From the NCBI RefSeq assembly GCF_041248615.1, contig NZ_CP158426.1: a stretch of DNA of 64,000 nucleotides. One strand, written 5' to 3'. This stretch comes from Escherichia coli. GTDB lineage: Bacteria; Pseudomonadota; Gammaproteobacteria; Enterobacterales; Enterobacteriaceae. Below, one piece after another: positions 24,001-30,000 of the stretch. The position numbers are program-made. Numbering within the stretch: position 1 is the stretch's first letter; the number at the start of each line of letters is the position of its first letter.

Positions 24001-27000
24001 GCGTGGCACAGATAGCCATCGCATGGGCTATTGCGAAAGGTACCCTTCCCCTCGTTGGTGCGACTAAAGTCCATCACGTTCTGGACGCCGCCTGCGCTTC
24101 AGACATCCAGTTACGCGATGAGGAAATCATTCTGCTGGAACAACTCGCCGCAGAGACCAGAGTGGATACACGAGGCGCCTGGGAAAAACCGATGGTGTAA
24201 AGCCCGTCCGGAACAGACTGTCATGAATGACACACACGAACGGGCTGTTCCGGGTGATTCTAATCTGTATCACTTTTACTGCTTTGTATGAATGGTGAGA
24301 ATATGAAAATCATTTGCCTCGAAGAAAATTATCTCGACAGCGAGTTAGGGCGAGCGTGTATGCCTGTTGCGCTTGAGCAGGCACCTTTCCTTGGCGACTG
24401 GGGGAAAACCGTCGCTGATGGTCATAATCCTGACCGACTCCCCAGCGCAGAGGTCAACTCCAGGCTTTCTATGTTTGCCTGGGGCTGGCATCACGAAGCG
24501 GGGATCCATTTGTTGCGGCTGATGTTATCGGGCGCATTTGATAAATATCCCAACCTGCAGGTAATCAGTGGCCACTGGGGGGAGATGTTACCCTTCTGGC
24601 TCCAGCGTCTTGATGACAGACTACCACTGGCTGCAACGGGTCTGTCACGCACGCTAACGAGAACCTTCAAGGAACACGTTTACGTTACCCCGTCAGGTAT
24701 GCTGACACTGCCGCACTTCAAGTTTATCTACGAGTTAATGGGGGCAGAAAGGATCCTATTCTCCGTCGATTATCCCTATCAGACCCTGGACGGTGTAAAA
24801 ACCTTTATAGACAGTCTGCCCGTCAACAAGGCTGAAAAAGAGGCCATCGCATTTCGCAATGCAGAACGTTTACTGGGCATCACGGCGTAGTTCACGGGTT
24901 CGTGATGACCGGTACAATGAGAACAGTTGACCATTATTAGTTTTTGTCTAAAAGTGAATAAGTCTTTACTGCTCTAAAAAAAATAATGGTGTCACTCTAT
25001 ACTGGGTTAAACATTCACCAAATATATTTAACTCATTGAAATGAAAAATATCCTTATTGTTTCAGGCCATCCTGAGCTTACCCATTCCGTCGCCAATGCC
25101 ACGATCCTTGATGAAGTGGAGACCGCCCTTCCTGATGTTGAGATTCGTCGTCTGGACAGGCTCTATCCGGATGGCAAATTCAACATCGCGGCGGAGCAGG
25201 AAAGCCTGCTCAGGGCCGATGTGATTGTCTGGCAGTTCCCTTTTTCCTGGTATGGGCTGCCAGGATTAATGAAAAAATGGCTGGACGAGGTCTTTGTTCA
25301 CGGCTTCGCGCATGGCTCAACGGCGAAACTGGGCGGTAAAAAGCTGATCCTCTCCTTTACAACGGGAGCGCCAGAGGAGCTCTATACCGTCGACAGTTTC
25401 TTTGGCCATACCATTGAAGAGTATCTAATTCGGTTCGAGACCACAGCAAAACTGTGCAATCTTGAGCTGCTGGAGCCGGTTTATACCTGCGGTATCAGCT
25501 ATGCCGATCGGGATGCCGACAAACTCGCGCAGCAAAAAACGCTTGCCCGGGAACACGCTTCAAGGCTTGTCGATCTGCTCAATTCCGTCGTGAATAATCC
25601 AGAGGGAGAATAACAATGCAGTATACCCGGCTCGGTAAAAGTGACTTACTTGTTTCCCGCATCTGCATGGGATGCATGGGGTTTGGCGATCCGTCGACGG
25701 GTCAGCATAGCTGGACGCTGGACGAAACAGCAAGCCGCGACATCATTCGCTATGGCCTTGAAAAGGGCATCAACTTTTACGATACCGCTATAGCCTACCA
25801 GAATGGCTCCAGTGAGCGATACGTTGGCCGGGCATTACGGGAGATGGCGAAACGCGATGATATCGTCCTGGCCACCAAGTTTCTGCCGCGAACCCCCGCA
25901 CAAATTGCCGGAGGGATCAGCGGAAAAGAGGCAATCGCTCAATCCCTTGACCAGAGCCTGAAGAATCTGGGGATGGACTATATCGACCTCTACATCTACC
26001 ACATCTGGGATTACAACACGCCCATTATCGACGTGCTTGAAGCGTTATATACCGCTGTTACTGCTGGCAAAGTACGAGCTGTTGGTATTTCAAACTGCTA
26101 TGCCTGGCAGCTGGCGAAGGCGAACGCCCTTGCTGAACGCGAAGGGCTGACGCCCTTTGTTTCCGTACAGAGCCACTACAATCTAATTATGCGCGAAGAT
26201 GAACGGGAGCTCTTCGGCCTGTGCACTGAGGATAATATCGCAATGACCCCCTATAGCGCGCTGGCCAGCGGCCGCCTCTCTCGTAAAGAAGGCTATACAC
26301 GGCGAGCCACAGAGGATGACTATGCGCGTGGAAAATATGACAGCACGGCTGAACAGGATCGCAGCATTATTGAGCGTGTAGCCGAACTGGCCGAACGCCA
26401 TCTGGTGTCAATGACGGAAATATCTCTCGCTTGGCTGCTGACAAAAGTCACATCACCTGTCGTAGGGGCTACAAAAAAAGCTCATGTCGATGGCGCGGTA
26501 AACGCAGTAAATCTTCAACTAAGTCCGGAGGAAATTCAGTTTCTGGAAGAAACCTACCAGCCGCATGTTCTGACGGGGATCATGGCGCAAAATACGCCGC
26601 AAACGAAAGATGTTAAGCAGGTCTGGATGCGATAGCCCTTATTCACTTTTCCTCCTCTCGTCTTTGAGAGCGCCAGTAGCGGTCGGTTACGTTCTTACCA
26701 GCACCAGTTGATCGAACGTCTTAAACAGTAACGTCAGTAAAAAGATCATCGTGAAAAAGACTTTTATGCTTTTAATTTGCATGCTAATAAGCAGCCCTGT
26801 CTTTGCAACAAAACCGGACGCGCCGAATAAGCCGGAGATGAATATCTTCGAGCTCGGCATCAGACCCGATCGGGACAACGACTTTGCAGACGTGGCCAGA
26901 CAGACGATTTCCGCTTCGGTTGATCATGAAGCAGGTACACTGGCGATGTATGCCCTGCAACGCAGCGACAATTCAGGTCAGGCATTCATGTTCGAACTCT

Positions 27001-30000
27001 ATGAAAATGAGCGTGCTTATCGCAAACATCTCAATGCCGCCCCATACAAAGCATTCGCTGCTCGTGCAGCTGACATTATTGACAGGAAGAAGAAAATTAC
27101 CCTGGAGCCACAGTTTCTGGGCGACAAACACATCATACCGAATGAACGAACTATCAATAATCTGGTGATCGTCGAAGTAAAGCCTGAATTTCAGAGCGAA
27201 TTTAGAAACATCGTCCTTCCTGAAATGGTCGAGTCGCTCAAAGTAGAGAAAGGCGTGTTAGCCATGTATGCCGGTACAGATTCAGAGACTCCAAAACGCT
27301 GGTATTTCTATGAGATTTACGCCAGTGAGGAGGATTATCAACTGCACCGACAAACGCTGCACTTCCTGGATTACCTCAGGCAAACGGCGCATATGAGCGC
27401 CAGGAAGGACGCAATCCCGGTAAAACCGGTATTTCTTCGTAACAAAGGCGGAATCAAACAGGAGCCGCAACGTTGACCAGTAAGGATTAACATGAAAAGC
27501 GTACTTGCAGCAGCGGCTATGTCGCTTGTTATTTCTGATTTTGCCAATGCTGAGGAAACAAGAGGTAAAGCTATGATGAAAATAGAACCGTCAGCGATTT
27601 CGGAAGCTGATATTCGTTCCGTCTCACCGGCTCTCGCGCGCTTTGGTCGCGAAGCTATTACTGAAGATCTGTGGACACGCGACGCCCTCTCACCGAGGGA
27701 TCGTAGTGTGGTGACCGTCGCCATGCTGATTGCCCGCAACCAGCCTGCCGAGCTTAAGCACTATATTGACGTCGCTCTCGATAGCGGCGTGACGCCAGCG
27801 GAATTATCAGAAATCATTACCCATCTGGCGTTCTACTCAGGTTGGCCAAATGCAATGTCAGCCGTCAGCGTGACCAAAGCAGTATTTGAAACTCGTGGCG
27901 TCACGGCAGATGCACTTCCTGAAGCTTCTCCGGACCTGCTTCCTCTCAATCAGGAAGCAGAAAAGCAGCGTTCAGAGACAGTGGAAAAAAATGTTGGCCC
28001 AATATCTCCAGGCCTGGTTAAATTCACTGCTGATCCACTCTTCCTGGATCTCTGGCAAAGACCCGCGCTGAAACCCCGCGACAGAAGCCTGATTACGGTC
28101 AGCGCCTTAATCGCATCCGGACAGAGCGCGCAGATTGGCTATCACCTCAATAGAGCAATGGATAATGGACTTTCTGTTGAGGAAGCTGGTGAGATCGTTA
28201 CCCAGGCCGCCTTCTATGCTGGCTGGCCAAACGCATTTACCGCTGCTCCGGTTGTGGGAGAGGTGCTAAACAATCGATCATCGAGTAAAAGGTAACATTA
28301 CTGAACACTAAAACCTGACGCACATCACAAAATTAGAACGATCAGTTCATGAACCAACAGACGTGACATCGAGTGATTTATGGACAGCGTTTAACACAGT
28401 TATGAACCAAAACTGAGTTCATAACTGTGAGTTTGAATCGCCATTTGATTAATATCCATTTAAAACAGTTTGTTATACTGTTTCTGGTGCTGTCGTAAAT
28501 TATGTATATTCCTCAAACCCAGAATAGTTAAATGGAATTTGAGTGATGCGAAGCGATTTTCCAGTCGTCGTTATTACTTCAGGGTTCCAGAACATAAAGC
28601 CTCTCCTCTTTCATAATTGGCCTGTGCATACCGGATATAGGCTGGCAGGTTTGCCGTTTGCCGCATCTTCCCTGCGTTGAAGAGTCAGGCTGGCAAACCA
28701 CACACCCTCTTTCCATCAACACTTCAGACAGCTTGCGGGAATGAGTTCACTCCGGTATCAGAAATGGCTACGCCTCAATGAAGCCAGGCGACTGATGCTG
28801 AATGAACATTACGATGTCACCACTGCAGCCTATGCTGTCGGTTACGAAAGCTTATCCCATTTCAGTCGGGAATATTCGCGGATGTTTGGAGAGTCACCTA
28901 AGAGAGATATTACCAGGTTAAGAAAGTCTGTCGGTCAGCTTTAATAAACCCTGCACTTATCTGTTTAGAGCAATTCCGTGTTAGTTACACTAGGCAAACA
29001 TTAACCATAGCTAATGTTTTATAGCCATATAAGCCATTGGTCGCTCTTGACCTTTCCTGACACTTCCCTTGTTCGCAATAATATTCTGTTTAGTCGCTGT
29101 TTATAAATATCATGCATAATGAAATCGTCATGTTATTTAGCGACATAAAATGTTTTTGCAAATACTCTCTACAACAAGTGCTGCAATAAACTTGTTGTGA
29201 TTAGGTGTCCTTGTAATTTAAAGATATTATCGTTCTTCGTGAAATGTAATAACCCTGGAAACTATATTCTCAGGGCAACAACCAATTAAGAATGATTCTT
29301 GTTTTATAAGCAATAACAGAATGACTTAATTGTTAACTCTCTTTATTCAGCTACTTAAATATAAATTTTGGAGAATTATGAAACTCAAACATGTCGGTAT
29401 GATTGTCGTTTCTGTGTTGGCGATGTCGTCTGCTGCGGTAAGCGCAGCCGAGGGAGATGAATCAGTAACGACCACTGTTAATGGCGGTGTTATTCATTTT
29501 AAAGGTGAAGTGGTAAATGCCGCTTGTGCGATTGATTCAGAATCAATGAACCAAACGGTTGAGCTGGGTCAGGTCCGTTCTTCTCGTCTGGCTAAAGCGG
29601 GTGACCTCAGCTCCGCCGTTGGCTTCAATATCAAGCTGAATGATTGTGATACCAATGTTTCCAGTAATGCAGCTGTTGCATTCCTGGGTACTACTGTCAC
29701 CAGTAATGACGATACCTTAGCGCTGCAGAGTTCAGCGGCTGGCTCTGCCCAAAATGTCGGTATTCAAATTTTGGACCGTACGGGGGAGGTATTAATACTT
29801 GATGGTGCCACTTTTAGCGCTAAAACCGACTTGATTGATGGCACGAATATACTGCCATTCCAGGCTCGTTATATTGCTCTCGGGCAGTCAGTAGCTGGTA
29901 CTGCAAACGCTGATGCGACCTTCAAAGTTCAATATCTATAATTCAATCTTAAGATGGCTATACGTCATCTGAAATTGAAACAGGGTGTGTGTTGCATGGC

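What the first reader, a model, noticed from the sequence alone, without database searches (positions are those of the whole stretch)
26751..28295. Two adjacent secreted proteins, each an internal duplication of a small enzyme fold (2xABM and 2xCMD)
ABM and carboxymuconolactone-decarboxylase/AhpD-like domains are normally small cytoplasmic units that dimerise. Here each protein carries a cleavable signal peptide (VFA/TKP and ANA/EET) followed by two tandem copies of the domain, so each would be a pseudo-dimer exported to the periplasm. A periplasmic cofactor-free oxygenase-like protein next to a periplasmic AhpD-like protein at the end of a redox cluster is an unusual arrangement whose substrate I cannot name.
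Basis: partly seen in the sequence, partly recalled or inferred. Interest (0 to 1): 0.5.

Follow-up and report, generated by a model that had tools for sequence, protein, structure and literature searches.

The report
Exported tandem ABM and dual-CMD enzymes
Two neighbouring E. coli genes encode internally duplicated, cofactor-free enzymes (a tandem ABM barrel and a "dualCMD") that carry export signals; both protein types are already known and widespread, and what they act on outside the cytoplasm is unknown.

Summary
ORF 26751-27476 has two ABM domains and ORF 27492-28295 has two CMD domains. In each protein the two halves are homologous, and each has a canonical Sec-type signal peptide (VFA|TKP, ANA|EET).

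- The CMD protein has no cysteine, so it is not AhpD-like. It is a gamma-CMD/PcaC-type "dualCMD", a class already named in the literature, with a close solved structure (4G9Q).
- The tandem ABM also has solved relatives (3F44, 3MCS).
- Export is not unusual. About half of the tandem-ABM cluster representatives, and about three quarters of the 80 best-matching dualCMD loci kept from a species-representative genome scan, carry signal or lipoprotein peptides. The 4G9Q gene in Sinorhizobium itself has a signal peptide and sits next to an exported ABM gene.

The two genes end a LysR-controlled, horizontally spread operon found in about 9% of complete E. coli genomes. Its other products look cytoplasmic, and several of those families usually work with NAD(P)H or flavin.

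Best reading: these are the cofactor-independent, periplasmic part of a two-compartment system that detoxifies or breaks down a quinone-, quinol- or lactone-like compound. The substrate is unknown.

Verdict: new member of a known kind, modest interest.

The parts
21132..22031 (-). Divergently transcribed LysR-family regulator, the presumed regulator of the operon
   Evidence: ORF. NCBIfam's best match is YafC-like, E 8e-48, below the curated cut-off. A LysR gene sits in the same position in Klebsiella, Dickeya, Pectobacterium, Sinorhizobium and most of the 80 surveyed loci.
22167..22478 (+). First operon gene: 103-aa protein with a muconolactone-isomerase/YciI-like ferredoxin fold; no signal peptide
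   Evidence: No Pfam or NCBIfam match. AlphaFold model pLDDT 91. Foldseek's best PDB matches are ClcF 5-chloromuconolactone isomerase, TftG, HI0828 and 1MLI, with TM about 0.64-0.70.
22475..23179 (+). DJ-1/PfpI-family protein (weak similarity to glyoxalase III HchA), presumed cytoplasmic
   Evidence: NCBIfam and PGAP annotation. A DJ-1 domain is fused in frame to a dualCMD in Mucilaginibacter.
23253..24200 (+). Aldo/keto reductase 1
24288..24890 (+). Remnant of an Amidohydro_2 gene, with an in-frame internal deletion of about residues 48-196 relative to the 344-aa Dickeya orthologue
   Evidence: tblastn of the Dickeya protein against the window. The Dickeya gene is full length. In another E. 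coli strain the region is annotated as two short ORFs.
25041..25613 (+). Flavodoxin_2-family NAD(P)H-dependent oxidoreductase, similar to KefF/KefG
   Evidence: NCBIfam KefF E 1e-42, below the curated cut-off. It is the most constant partner of both the dualCMD and the tandem ABM in Enterobacterales and in two distant tandem-ABM loci.
25616..26635 (+). Aldo/keto reductase 2
26751..27476 (+). Tandem-ABM protein, 241 aa from a GTG start
26751..26807 (+). Signal peptide of the tandem-ABM protein (residues 1-19, MKKTFMLLICMLISSPVFA, predicted cleavage before TKP)
   Evidence: Rule-based score. Conserved across genera. GTG start invariant in four genera. Unstructured in the model. Absent from the homologues 3MCS and 3F44.
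26844..27062 (+). ABM domain 1 (residues 32-104); carries the most conserved motif, E60-x-G62 ... E82-x-Y84 ... H93
   Evidence: Pfam. Conservation across 78 family members.
27171..27377 (+). ABM domain 2 (residues 141-209); same motif (E166, G168, E188, Y190, H199), less strictly conserved
   Evidence: Pfam. Pairwise alignment of the halves. Conservation counts.
27492..28295 (+). dualCMD protein, 267 aa, ATG start with TAAGGA 6 nt upstream; begins 15 nt after the ABM gene's stop codon
27492..27551 (+). Signal peptide of the dualCMD (residues 1-20, MKSVLAAAAMSLVISDFANA, predicted cleavage before EET)
   Evidence: Rule-based score. Conserved in type in Enterobacterales and in about 62 of 80 loci from other taxa, including lipobox variants.
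27651..27878 (+). CMD domain 1 (residues 54-129), with the PcaC-type residues W61, R63, R69-D-R71, E107 and H111, all invariant in the family alignment
   Evidence: Pfam. Alignments.
28017..28256 (+). CMD domain 2 (residues 176-255); same residues, except that the His is replaced by Gln238 in E. coli and its closest relatives
   Evidence: Pfam. Alignments.

Best explanation
The two genes are the last cistrons of a LysR-controlled operon that has spread horizontally. The operon order is: muconolactone-isomerase/YciI-like protein, DJ-1/PfpI, aldo/keto reductase, decayed Amidohydro_2, Flavodoxin_2-family NAD(P)H oxidoreductase, aldo/keto reductase, tandem ABM, dualCMD.

Shown:
- Both proteins are internal duplications.
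- The ABM protein folds as a single-chain version of the ABM dimer barrel.
- The CMD protein is a gamma-CMD/PcaC-type dualCMD closely related to the solved structure 4G9Q.
- Both carry Sec-type signal peptides that are conserved in type across many taxa.

Inferred:
- Both are exported unfolded through Sec, cleaved after VFA and ANA, and fold in the periplasm. They can work there because ABM and gamma-CMD enzymes, as far as they have been characterised, need no organic cofactor and no NAD(P)H. This point rests on general knowledge of the two families.
- The other operon products lack export signals and stay in the cytoplasm. Several belong to families that usually use NAD(P)H or flavin.
- Together they would form a two-compartment system that handles a small redox-active aromatic or lactone-type compound, such as a quinone, a hydroquinone, a hydroxylated phenolic acid or a carboxylated enol-lactone. 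Many carriers belong to genera known from plants and soil, so a plant or soil source is plausible.

Guessed chemistry (low confidence):
- The ABM protein performs a cofactor-free oxygenation or a keto-enol tautomerisation of a quinol- or dione-type substrate.
- The dualCMD, probably a trimer equivalent to the CMD hexamer ring, performs PcaC-like acid-base decarboxylation or double-bond migration. It would use the Glu-His pair and the arginine cluster, which are retained in full in its first half.
For: Architecture and fold
-.
- Sequence matches to solved structures: 3MCS E 4e-25, 3F44 E 4e-19, 4G9Q E 2e-73 over the full mature length.

Export
- Rule-based scoring.
- Conservation of the signal peptides in close homologues.
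- Invariant GTG start of the ABM gene.
- In a scan of species-representative genomes, 56 of the 80 best-matching dualCMD loci kept have type-I signals and 6 score as lipobox signals. One of those six, L082, is a scorer artefact.
- 42 of 86 tandem-ABM cluster representatives have an N-terminal extension of at least 18 residues that looks like a signal; the other 44 have none.
- The 4G9Q gene in Sinorhizobium has its own signal peptide and lies directly after an exported single-domain ABM gene, under a divergent LysR gene.
- Presence or absence of a signal peptide largely matches between a dualCMD and the cupin gene next to it. By my manual reading, about 24 pairs both have one and about 5 both lack one, with few exceptions.
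- Neither mature protein contains cysteine (read from the sequence).

Operon and context
- The same gene order occurs in Dickeya and Pectobacterium and in Serratia plymuthica apart from the second aldo/keto reductase.
- Reduced versions, LysR-Flavodoxin_2-(AKR)-dualCMD, occur in Klebsiella and Erwinia.
- Distant exported tandem ABMs end LysR-Flavodoxin_2-YCII-AKR(-Amidohydro_2) operons.
- Gene fusions link the dualCMD to its neighbours: dualCMD-cupin and DJ-1-dualCMD.

PcaC-type residues.
Muconolactone-isomerase/YciI-like fold of the first operon gene.
Against: - No experiment anywhere supports export, activity or a substrate. Nine full-text literature searches found none (one search was badly designed and uninformative).
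- No trained signal-peptide predictor was available. My scorer misclassified two of the window's own proteins.
- The Shine-Dalgarno sequence before the E. coli GTG is weak, and PGAP picks a later start.
- Close relatives without a signal exist. In Erwinia mallotivora it is absent. In one lineage a TAG stop codon directly follows the signal peptide. In Mucilaginibacter the dualCMD is fused to DJ-1 without a signal. The protein can therefore apparently also work, or decay, in the cytoplasm.
- The two proteins are not obligate partners. Most dualCMD loci have a cupin rather than an ABM gene, and the distant tandem ABMs examined lack a CMD neighbour.
- The Amidohydro_2 gene of the operon is decayed in E. 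coli, so the pathway may be incomplete there.
- The proposed chemistry rests on family resemblance only. Both proteins score below the curated NCBIfam cut-offs: PcaC 115 bits against 155.7, LsrG 57 against 135.
Confidence: 0.5

Rival explanations
1. The signal peptides are artefacts of start-site choice. Both proteins would be ordinary cytoplasmic enzymes translated from internal Met codons (Met11 in the ABM protein, Met27/28 in the CMD protein).
For: PGAP annotates the ABM protein from Met11. The Shine-Dalgarno sequence before the GTG is weak in E. coli. Many database entries are 231-236 aa or 240 aa forms that lack the signal. Relatives that truly lack a signal exist.
Against: The GTG-AAAAA start is invariant in four genera, while the internal ATGs are not conserved. 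The CMD gene's ATG has a good TAAGGA Shine-Dalgarno sequence. The hydrophobic N-termini are conserved at protein level in type, though not in sequence, across phyla, and include lipobox versions. In the one 240-aa form examined, a nonsense mutation lies after an intact signal-coding region. Signal presence largely matches between the dualCMD and the neighbouring cupin gene.
Confidence: 0.07
2. The CMD protein is a periplasmic AhpD-like thiol peroxidase or peroxiredoxin reductase, and the pair is an antioxidant system.
For: The Pfam CMD family includes AhpD. The operon has a stress-defence flavour. Relatives of the first operon gene are named 'superoxide dismutase' by NCBI.
Against: The protein has no cysteine, so it has no CxxC. 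PMC3141380 describes the AhpD proton relay as Glu118/Cys130/His132/Cys133/His137 and says gamma-CMD family members lack it. The residues that are conserved match PcaC.
Confidence: 0.03
3. The pair are true beta-ketoadipate-pathway enzymes: a PcaC decarboxylase plus a muconolactone-isomerase-like ABM, used for growth on protocatechuate or catechol.
For: The best NCBIfam matches are PcaC, PcaDC and PcaCD. PcaC residues are conserved. The first operon gene has a muconolactone-isomerase-like fold.
Against: The score is below the PcaC equivalog cut-off (115 against 155.7 bits). No pcaGH, pcaB or pcaD genes lie nearby in any locus examined, unlike the genuine pcaDCHG locus. Export to the periplasm does not fit that pathway, which as far as I know is cytoplasmic. 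PMC5615479 notes that some bacteria carrying dualCMDs encode no protocatechuate 3,4-dioxygenase.
Confidence: 0.05
4. The tandem ABM protein is a periplasmic ligand- or haem-binding or haem-degrading protein (like IsdG or HmoB) rather than a quinol- or dione-converting enzyme, and the dualCMD is a non-catalytic partner.
For: ABM-fold haem oxygenases appear among the weaker structural matches (HmoB 4FVC, E 1e-5). The second CMD half has lost the conserved His in E. coli.
Against: The conserved motif is E-x-G/E-x-Y/H. From memory, the IsdG catalytic triad is Asn-Trp-His; I did not test this. The constant genomic partners are a Flavodoxin_2 oxidoreductase, aldo/keto reductases and YCII-like proteins, not haem or iron uptake genes. 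The first CMD half keeps all the PcaC-type residues.
Confidence: 0.07

Closest known systems
dualCMD class (PDB 4G9Q from Sinorhizobium meliloti and 2Q0T from Paraburkholderia xenovorans; class named in PMC5615479)
   Same: Two CMD signatures in one chain of about 260 aa. E 2e-73 to 4G9Q over residues 25-262. The same conserved residues in both halves. The native 4G9Q gene also has a signal peptide, a divergent LysR gene and an adjacent exported ABM gene.
   Different: In the E. coli protein the His of the second half is replaced by Gln. The partner is a tandem ABM rather than a single-domain one. No function is known for any bacterial dualCMD (PMC5615479). That paper reports a different, basal-body role for the Trichomonas homologue.
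PcaC, 4-carboxymuconolactone decarboxylase (TIGR02425; gamma-CMD, PDB 2AF7)
   Same: Each half is 26-30% identical to a genuine PcaC and keeps the W, R, R-x-R-S, T, G, E...H-x-A-x-Y-x-G pattern. No CxxC.
   Different: Duplicated, exported, below the equivalog cut-off, and never next to pca genes.
Tandem-ABM proteins of unknown function from structural genomics (PDB 3F44 Lactobacillus acidophilus, 3MCS Fusobacterium nucleatum FN1347)
   Same: Two ABM repeats form one barrel in a single chain. TM-score 0.84 (query-normalised) and 0.93-0.96 (target-normalised), rmsd 1.4-1.9 A. E 4e-19 to 4e-25 by sequence.
   Different: Those two lack the N-terminal signal: their chains start at the position of query residue 28-30. 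No function is known for them either.
YgiN-MdaB quinol monooxygenase / quinone reductase pair of E. coli K-12 (recalled from Adams and Jia 2005, not read here); source of the PGAP name 'putative quinol monooxygenase'
   Same: An ABM protein encoded together with a flavin-dependent NAD(P)H oxidoreductase. The pairing of a tandem ABM with Flavodoxin_2 recurs in distant taxa.
   Different: As I recall, YgiN is a single-domain cytoplasmic homodimer. Here the ABM is tandem and exported, so it would not share a compartment with the reductase. No activity has been tested.
AhpD (Mycobacterium tuberculosis alkylhydroperoxidase D)
   Same: Same all-helical superfamily and the same Pfam family, CMD.
   Different: The catalytic Cys-x-x-Cys and the proton relay are absent; there is no cysteine in the protein at all.

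Membership tests
ABM (Pfam PF03992), dimeric alpha+beta barrel | Significant match to the family profile | tested here: met
   Two domains, E 5e-11 and 8e-12.
ABM (Pfam PF03992), dimeric alpha+beta barrel | Ferredoxin-like repeat pairing into a barrel; here both repeats are in one chain | tested here: met
   AlphaFold model pLDDT 94.1 and pTM 0.87, with two beta-alpha-beta-beta-alpha-alpha-beta repeats. TM-score 0.84 (query) and 0.93-0.96 (target) to 3F44 and 3MCS.
ABM (Pfam PF03992), dimeric alpha+beta barrel | Cofactor-free oxygenase or isomerase activity | not testable with these tools
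   Needs an enzyme assay.
LsrG, phospho-DPD isomerase (NCBIfam NF007791) | Score above the curated cut-off of 135 bits | tested here: not met
   57.3 bits.
CMD (Pfam PF02627) | Significant match to the family profile | tested here: met
   Two domains, E 3e-17 and 7e-17.
dualCMD (PMC5615479; PDB 4G9Q, 2Q0T) | Two CMD signatures in one chain about twice the canonical length | tested here: met
   E 2e-73 to 4G9Q over the full mature length.
dualCMD (PMC5615479; PDB 4G9Q, 2Q0T) | Homotrimer forming the ring that canonical CMD hexamers form | not tested
   Reported for 4G9Q and 2Q0T in PMC5615479. No multimer prediction was run here.
PcaC, 4-carboxymuconolactone decarboxylase (TIGR02425 equivalog) | Score above the curated cut-off of 155.7 bits | tested here: not met
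   115.3 bits, summed over two stretches.
PcaC, 4-carboxymuconolactone decarboxylase (TIGR02425 equivalog) | Genomic context with pcaD, pcaGH and pcaB | tested here: not met
   None in the window or in any related locus examined. Compare the genuine pcaDCHG locus.
PcaC, 4-carboxymuconolactone decarboxylase (TIGR02425 equivalog) | Conserved residues shared with a genuine PcaC (W, R, R-x-R-S, E...H...Y-x-G) | tested here: met
   All present in half 1. In half 2 the His is replaced by Gln. Their catalytic role is not established; PMC3141380 says the CMD active site has not been determined.
AhpD-type alkylhydroperoxidase | Cys-x-x-Cys with the Glu/His proton relay | tested here: not met
   No cysteine in the 267-aa sequence. 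Motif definition from PMC3141380.
Sec (type I) signal peptide | Positive n-region, uncharged hydrophobic h-region of at least 10 residues, small residues at -3 and -1 | tested here: met
   Rule-based scorer: cleavage after residue 19 (ABM) and 20 (CMD), with core hydrophobicity 3.3 and 2.4. No trained predictor was available.
Sec (type I) signal peptide | Actual export and cleavage | not testable with these tools
   Needs PhoA or Bla fusions, or fractionation with N-terminal mass spectrometry.
Tat signal peptide | Twin-arginine motif in the n-region | tested here: not met
   No RR in either N-terminus.
Lipoprotein (type II) signal | Lipobox [LVI][ASTVI][GAS]C | tested here: not met
   Absent from both window proteins. 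Present in some dualCMD relatives: L041, L043, L048, L061.

The most novel reading that the evidence does not exclude
The exported dualCMD, together with interchangeable exported partners, could be a periplasmic enzyme module that has not been described and whose chemistry is not yet known. The partners seen are a tandem or single ABM, a Cupin_2 protein, a cyclophilin-like-2 protein and a PQQ sorbosone-dehydrogenase-like protein. The module is under LysR control and coupled to cytoplasmic reductases, and it occurs across Alpha-, Beta- and Gammaproteobacteria and Acidobacteria. The E. coli pair would be one variant of it.
Probability: 0.3. Interest if true: 0.55.

Novelty: new member of a known kind. 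Interest (0 to 1): 0.3.

Why it matters
If the export is real, these are examples of cofactor-free enzyme folds used outside the cytoplasm, where NAD(P)H is not available. They also give a handle on two large families whose function is unknown: the paper naming the class collected over 1,200 dualCMD sequences (PMC5615479), and the tandem ABM search here found about 500 cluster representatives.

The survey adds testable leads:
- a conserved partner set (LysR, Flavodoxin_2 oxidoreductase, aldo/keto reductase, cupin);
- gene fusions (dualCMD-cupin, DJ-1-dualCMD);
- presence or absence of signal peptides that largely matches between neighbouring genes.

In practical terms, the RefSeq start of the E. 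coli ABM gene probably hides its signal peptide. The operon is an accessory island in about 9% of complete E. coli genomes and is shared with genera that include plant pathogens and plant-associated bacteria. It has no known link to virulence or resistance.

Tried and rejected
- AhpD-like function: rejected, because the protein has no cysteine.
- Genuine PcaC or beta-ketoadipate role: rejected on score and context.
- RNA elements or repeats in or around the pair: none. Rfam at gathering threshold gave 0 matches; the repeat scan found only one short chance-level direct repeat and one palindrome.
- Promoter and terminator consensus scans: no more sites than in shuffled sequence, so they say nothing about operon boundaries.
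- Literature: searches on periplasmic CMD, 4G9Q, CMD active sites, the ABM/CMD/AKR/LysR combination, CMD with cupin and hydroxynitrile lyase, the RefSeq protein accessions, CMD in secretome and vesicle studies, the PDB codes 3MCS/3F44/FN1347, and CMD with quinone and LysR. None gave functional data for this family. The secretome search was badly designed and uninformative. The HOCl-induced CMD in Burkholderia is listed with peroxide-scavenging enzymes and is probably AhpD-type, so I set it aside.
- The NCBI name 'superoxide dismutase' for relatives of the 103-aa first gene: not supported by anything I could test. The predicted fold is muconolactone-isomerase/YciI-like.
- The automatic count of signal-peptide agreement between cupin and dualCMD was noisy, because the anchor motif sometimes fell inside a signal peptide and second, cytoplasmic cupin paralogues were counted. 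The figures I quote come from my own reading and are approximate.

Full report
**Where the window comes from.** It is E. coli chromosome, between hipBA and the ydeQRS-type fimbrial operon. The 1.8-kb stretch holding the two genes is present in 497 of 5,426 complete E. coli genomes, mostly at 95-100% identity. Eight of the 503 places are on plasmids.

**Checking the observation.**
- ORF 26751-27476 (+, 241 aa from GTG) has two Pfam ABM domains, at residues 32-104 and 141-209.
- ORF 27492-28295 (+, 267 aa, ATG preceded by TAAGGA) has two CMD domains, at residues 54-129 and 176-255.
- The halves of each protein align with each other: ABM 26% identity, E 3e-13; CMD 43% identity, E 7e-32. The internal duplications are real.
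- Both N-termini have the three parts of a Sec signal.
- That scorer is crude. On the window's own proteins it wrongly flagged the DJ-1 protein and missed the fimbrial usher. The case for signal peptides therefore rests mainly on comparative evidence, given below.

**The start of the ABM gene.** PGAP starts it at Met11 (231 aa), and other gene callers choose Met6. Either choice hides or weakens the signal peptide. An alignment of the upstream DNA from E. coli, Dickeya, Pectobacterium and Serratia shows an invariant GTG-AAAAA at the position of 26751. In Dickeya an AAGGA lies 7 nt upstream. The internal ATG codons are not conserved in Serratia. Protein sequences from many Enterobacterales keep MKK(T/S)(L/F)MLLICMLISSPVFA. 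GTG at 26751 is the most likely start.

**Fold of the ABM protein.**
- By sequence it matches two structural-genomics tandem ABMs over its whole mature length: 3MCS (E 4e-25) and 3F44 (E 4e-19). Their chains begin at the position of query residue 28-30, so they lack the N-terminal extension.
- An AlphaFold model built from a 78-sequence alignment has pLDDT 94.1 and pTM 0.87. Residues 1 to about 22 are low-confidence and have no secondary structure. The rest forms two ferredoxin-like repeats.
- Foldseek puts 3F44 and 3MCS first, with TM-score 0.84 normalised by query and 0.93-0.96 by target, and rmsd 1.4-1.9 A.
- The single-chain pseudo-dimer reading is therefore supported.
- Both halves keep an E-x-G ... 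E-x-Y ... Y-x-x-H motif. It is 88-97% conserved in half 1 and 75-85% in half 2.

**What the CMD protein is.**
- It matches PDB 4G9Q over residues 25-262 with E 2e-73.
- PMC5615479 names this architecture 'dualCMD' and collected 1,202 such sequences. It cites 4G9Q and 2Q0T as homotrimers forming the ring that canonical CMD hexamers form, and states that no report describes their function.
- The window protein contains no cysteine. The AhpD machinery is Glu118/Cys130/His132/Cys133/His137, and gamma-CMD proteins lack it (PMC3141380).
- Aligned with a genuine PcaC from a pcaQ-pcaDCHG locus, both halves share W, R, R-x-R-S, T, G and E...H-x-A-x-Y-x-G. The His of the second half is Gln in E. coli and its closest relatives, and His in more distant ones.
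- NCBIfam's best matches are PcaC-type models, all below their curated cut-offs.
- It is thus a gamma-CMD/PcaC-like dualCMD. It is neither an AhpD nor an annotated PcaC equivalog.

**How general export is.**
- *dualCMD.* A genome scan seeded with a family alignment returned 80 loci from species-representative genomes of Alpha-, Beta- and Gammaproteobacteria and Acidobacteria, plus one cyanobacterial MAG and one Mucilaginibacter. Of these, 56 scored as type-I signals, 6 as lipobox signals and 18 as none. The scoring had a few visible errors in both directions.
- *Lipobox variants.* Sequences such as LLMSG|C and LGLAG|C are independent evidence, because a lipobox has no role in a cytoplasmic protein.
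- *Tandem ABM.* An exhaustive search found 501 cluster representatives at E up to 0.001. Of the 86 that are full length and have two domains, 44 have no N-terminal extension. The other 42 have an extension of 18 or more residues. Of those 42, 29 pass the strict scorer, and most of the rest look like signals by eye.
- Exported forms are therefore common in both families, and cytoplasmic forms also exist.

**The Sinorhizobium locus.** The 4G9Q gene lies on pSymA of S. meliloti. It has its own signal peptide (MKRLIAPLMGVMMMTTSNAGA|QQP). It directly follows a single-domain ABM gene with a signal peptide (MGLKRLLIIAASIIAPLPVQQVVA|QEA). A divergent LysR gene lies upstream. DUF2255, an aldo/keto reductase, a sorbosone-dehydrogenase-family gene and a cupin follow. 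Adjacency of an exported ABM gene and an exported dualCMD gene therefore recurs between Alpha- and Gammaproteobacteria.

**Genomic context.**
- The window's gene order is LysR (divergent), a 103-aa protein, DJ-1/PfpI, aldo/keto reductase, Amidohydro_2, Flavodoxin_2, aldo/keto reductase, tandem ABM, dualCMD.
- The same order occurs in Dickeya zeae and Pectobacterium peruviense, flanked by unrelated genes, which indicates a mobile cassette. Pectobacterium lacks the Amidohydro_2 gene. Serratia plymuthica has the same order apart from the second aldo/keto reductase.
- Klebsiella and Erwinia carry reduced versions: LysR, (103-aa protein), Flavodoxin_2, (AKR), dualCMD, without the ABM gene.
- Two distant exported tandem ABMs (52% and 35% identity) end LysR-Flavodoxin_2-YCII-AKR(-Amidohydro_2) operons that have no CMD gene.
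- Across the 80 dualCMD loci the commonest neighbours are a LysR gene and a Cupin_2 gene of about 150 aa. Cyclophil_like2, aldo/keto reductase, DUF2255, ABM (about 8 loci with one close by) and sorbosone-dehydrogenase-like genes also occur.
- Many of the adjacent cupin, cyclophilin-like, single-domain ABM and sorbosone-dehydrogenase-like genes carry their own signal peptides.
- By my reading, the cupin gene next to a signal-bearing dualCMD also has a signal in about 24 loci. Where the dualCMD lacks one, the adjacent cupin lacks one too in about 5 loci. There are few exceptions; L072 is one. In L038 a signal-less dualCMD lies next to a signal-bearing ABM. These counts are approximate and not corrected for phylogeny.
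- Fusions link the proteins: dualCMD-Cupin_2 with an N-terminal signal (L084, and by length probably seven others), and DJ-1/PfpI-dualCMD without a signal (L082).

**The first operon gene.** The 103-aa protein has no Pfam or NCBIfam match. Its model (pLDDT 91) resembles ClcF 5-chloromuconolactone isomerase, the hydroxyhydroquinone dehydrochlorinase TftG, the YciI-like protein HI0828 and muconolactone isomerase 1MLI, with TM about 0.64-0.70. NCBI and UniRef name many relatives 'superoxide dismutase'. I found nothing to support that name.

**How it most likely works.**
- *Shown:* the architectures, the folds, the conserved signal peptides, the conserved operon partners and the fusions.
- *Inferred (export):* both proteins are exported through Sec and cleaved. 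They can function in the periplasm because characterised ABM and gamma-CMD enzymes need no organic cofactor (general knowledge of the families). Neither mature protein has cysteine.
- *Inferred (cytoplasmic part):* the remaining operon products have no export signal. Several belong to families that usually use NAD(P)H or flavin. This suggests a two-compartment system acting on a small electrophilic or redox-active compound.
- *Inferred (substrate class):* the family mix points to quinone, hydroquinone, phenolic-acid or lactone chemistry. That mix is a Flavodoxin_2 reductase with an ABM (recalling the MdaB-YgiN pair, from memory), a TftG/muconolactone-isomerase-like fold, a PcaC-like decarboxylase, aldo/keto reductases, DJ-1, and Amidohydro_2, a family that from memory includes hydroxybenzoate decarboxylases and lactonases. 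Many carriers belong to genera known from plants and soil, including Dickeya, Pectobacterium, Pantoea, Erwinia, Serratia, rhizobia, Paraburkholderia and Pseudomonas.
- *Guessed:* the specific reactions. I put about 0.85 on export, about 0.99 on the folds, about 0.5 on the two-compartment detoxification picture, and about 0.2 on any particular chemistry.

**Evidence that cuts the other way.**
- Close relatives without a signal exist. Erwinia mallotivora has no signal-coding region. One enterobacterial lineage, 92% identical, has a TAG stop codon exactly at the first codon of the mature protein. This explains one of the 240-aa database entries.
- The Amidohydro_2 gene is decayed in E. coli. In the window it has an in-frame deletion of about 148 codons. 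In another E. coli strain the region is annotated as two short ORFs. The pathway may therefore be incomplete in E. coli.
- The two proteins are not obligate partners.
- No publication found in nine searches addresses function, regulation or localisation.

**Novelty and score.** Both architectures are known and have solved structures. The dualCMD class has been named. Export is common in both families. What appears not to have been described in the open literature I could search is the export itself and the conserved LysR-controlled context with exported partners. The finding is a correct and careful observation of an ordinary member of two poorly understood families: a new member of a known kind, interest about 0.3. 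The most novel reading still open is an undescribed periplasmic enzyme module built around the dualCMD. I give that probability about 0.3, and interest about 0.55 if true.

Noticed in passing
window 26751-26783: RefSeq/PGAP starts the ABM gene at Met11 (231 aa), which removes the signal peptide. The GTG at 26751 is invariant in E. coli, Dickeya, Pectobacterium and Serratia, so the annotated start is probably wrong.
   Followed up: yes
window 24288-24890: The Amidohydro_2 gene of the operon has an in-frame internal deletion: residues about 48-196 of the 344-aa Dickeya orthologue are missing. In another E. coli strain the region is about 88 bp longer and is annotated as a 51-aa hypothetical ORF plus a 187-aa amidohydrolase ORF.
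   Followed up: partly
window 22167-22478: The 103-aa first gene of the operon has no Pfam or NCBIfam match. NCBI and UniRef name many relatives 'superoxide dismutase', yet the predicted fold is muconolactone-isomerase/YciI-like; the best matches are ClcF, TftG, HI0828 and 1MLI.
   Followed up: partly
L095 4921-5003: In a 92%-identical enterobacterial relative, the dualCMD signal-peptide coding region is intact but is followed directly by a TAG stop at the first codon of the mature protein. Gene callers therefore report a 240-aa protein without a signal, starting MMKIEPS. It could be a pseudogene or re-initiated translation.
   Followed up: partly
L084 7001-8200; L082 6482-7897: Gene fusions. 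In Rhizobium sp. a dualCMD is fused to a C-terminal Cupin_2 domain (400 aa, with a signal peptide); similar ORFs of about 390-460 aa occur in L079, L080, L083, L087, L089 and L090, and a longer one in L086. In Mucilaginibacter a DJ-1/PfpI domain is fused to the N-terminus of a dualCMD (472 aa, no signal).
   Followed up: partly
L014-L081 (for example L064 6470-6928): Most dualCMD loci have an adjacent Cupin_2 gene of about 150 aa, often with its own signal peptide, and some have a second cytoplasmic paralogue. From memory, these cupins resemble the Mn-dependent bacterial hydroxynitrile lyase GtHNL; I did not test this.
   Followed up: partly
L022 4227-4853; protein P0249: A few partner proteins have twin-arginine-like N-termini rather than Sec-type ones: cupin MPHVTRRGALIGG... 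and tandem ABM MNSIKRRSAMMGVAA....
   Followed up: no
window 28741-28944: A 67-aa ORF is the C-terminal helix-turn-helix fragment of a transcriptional regulator. The matching region in a closely related E. coli genome is annotated by PGAP as a pseudogene missing its N-terminus. From memory it looks like an AraC-type fragment at the position of yneL in K-12.
   Followed up: no
window 29330-34251: A chaperone-usher fimbrial operon (fimA-like subunit, chaperone, 883-aa usher, ydeS-like subunit) lies downstream with an intact usher ORF. From memory, the K-12 counterpart ydeT is a pseudogene.
   Followed up: no
window 19354-20733: The toxin gene hipA of the hipBA toxin-antitoxin pair lies just upstream of the LysR gene. 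The mechanical ORF is longer than the annotated 440-aa gene.
   Followed up: no
window 26600-28400, matches in E. coli plasmids: Eight of the 503 matching places in complete E. coli genomes are on plasmids rather than chromosomes.
   Followed up: no
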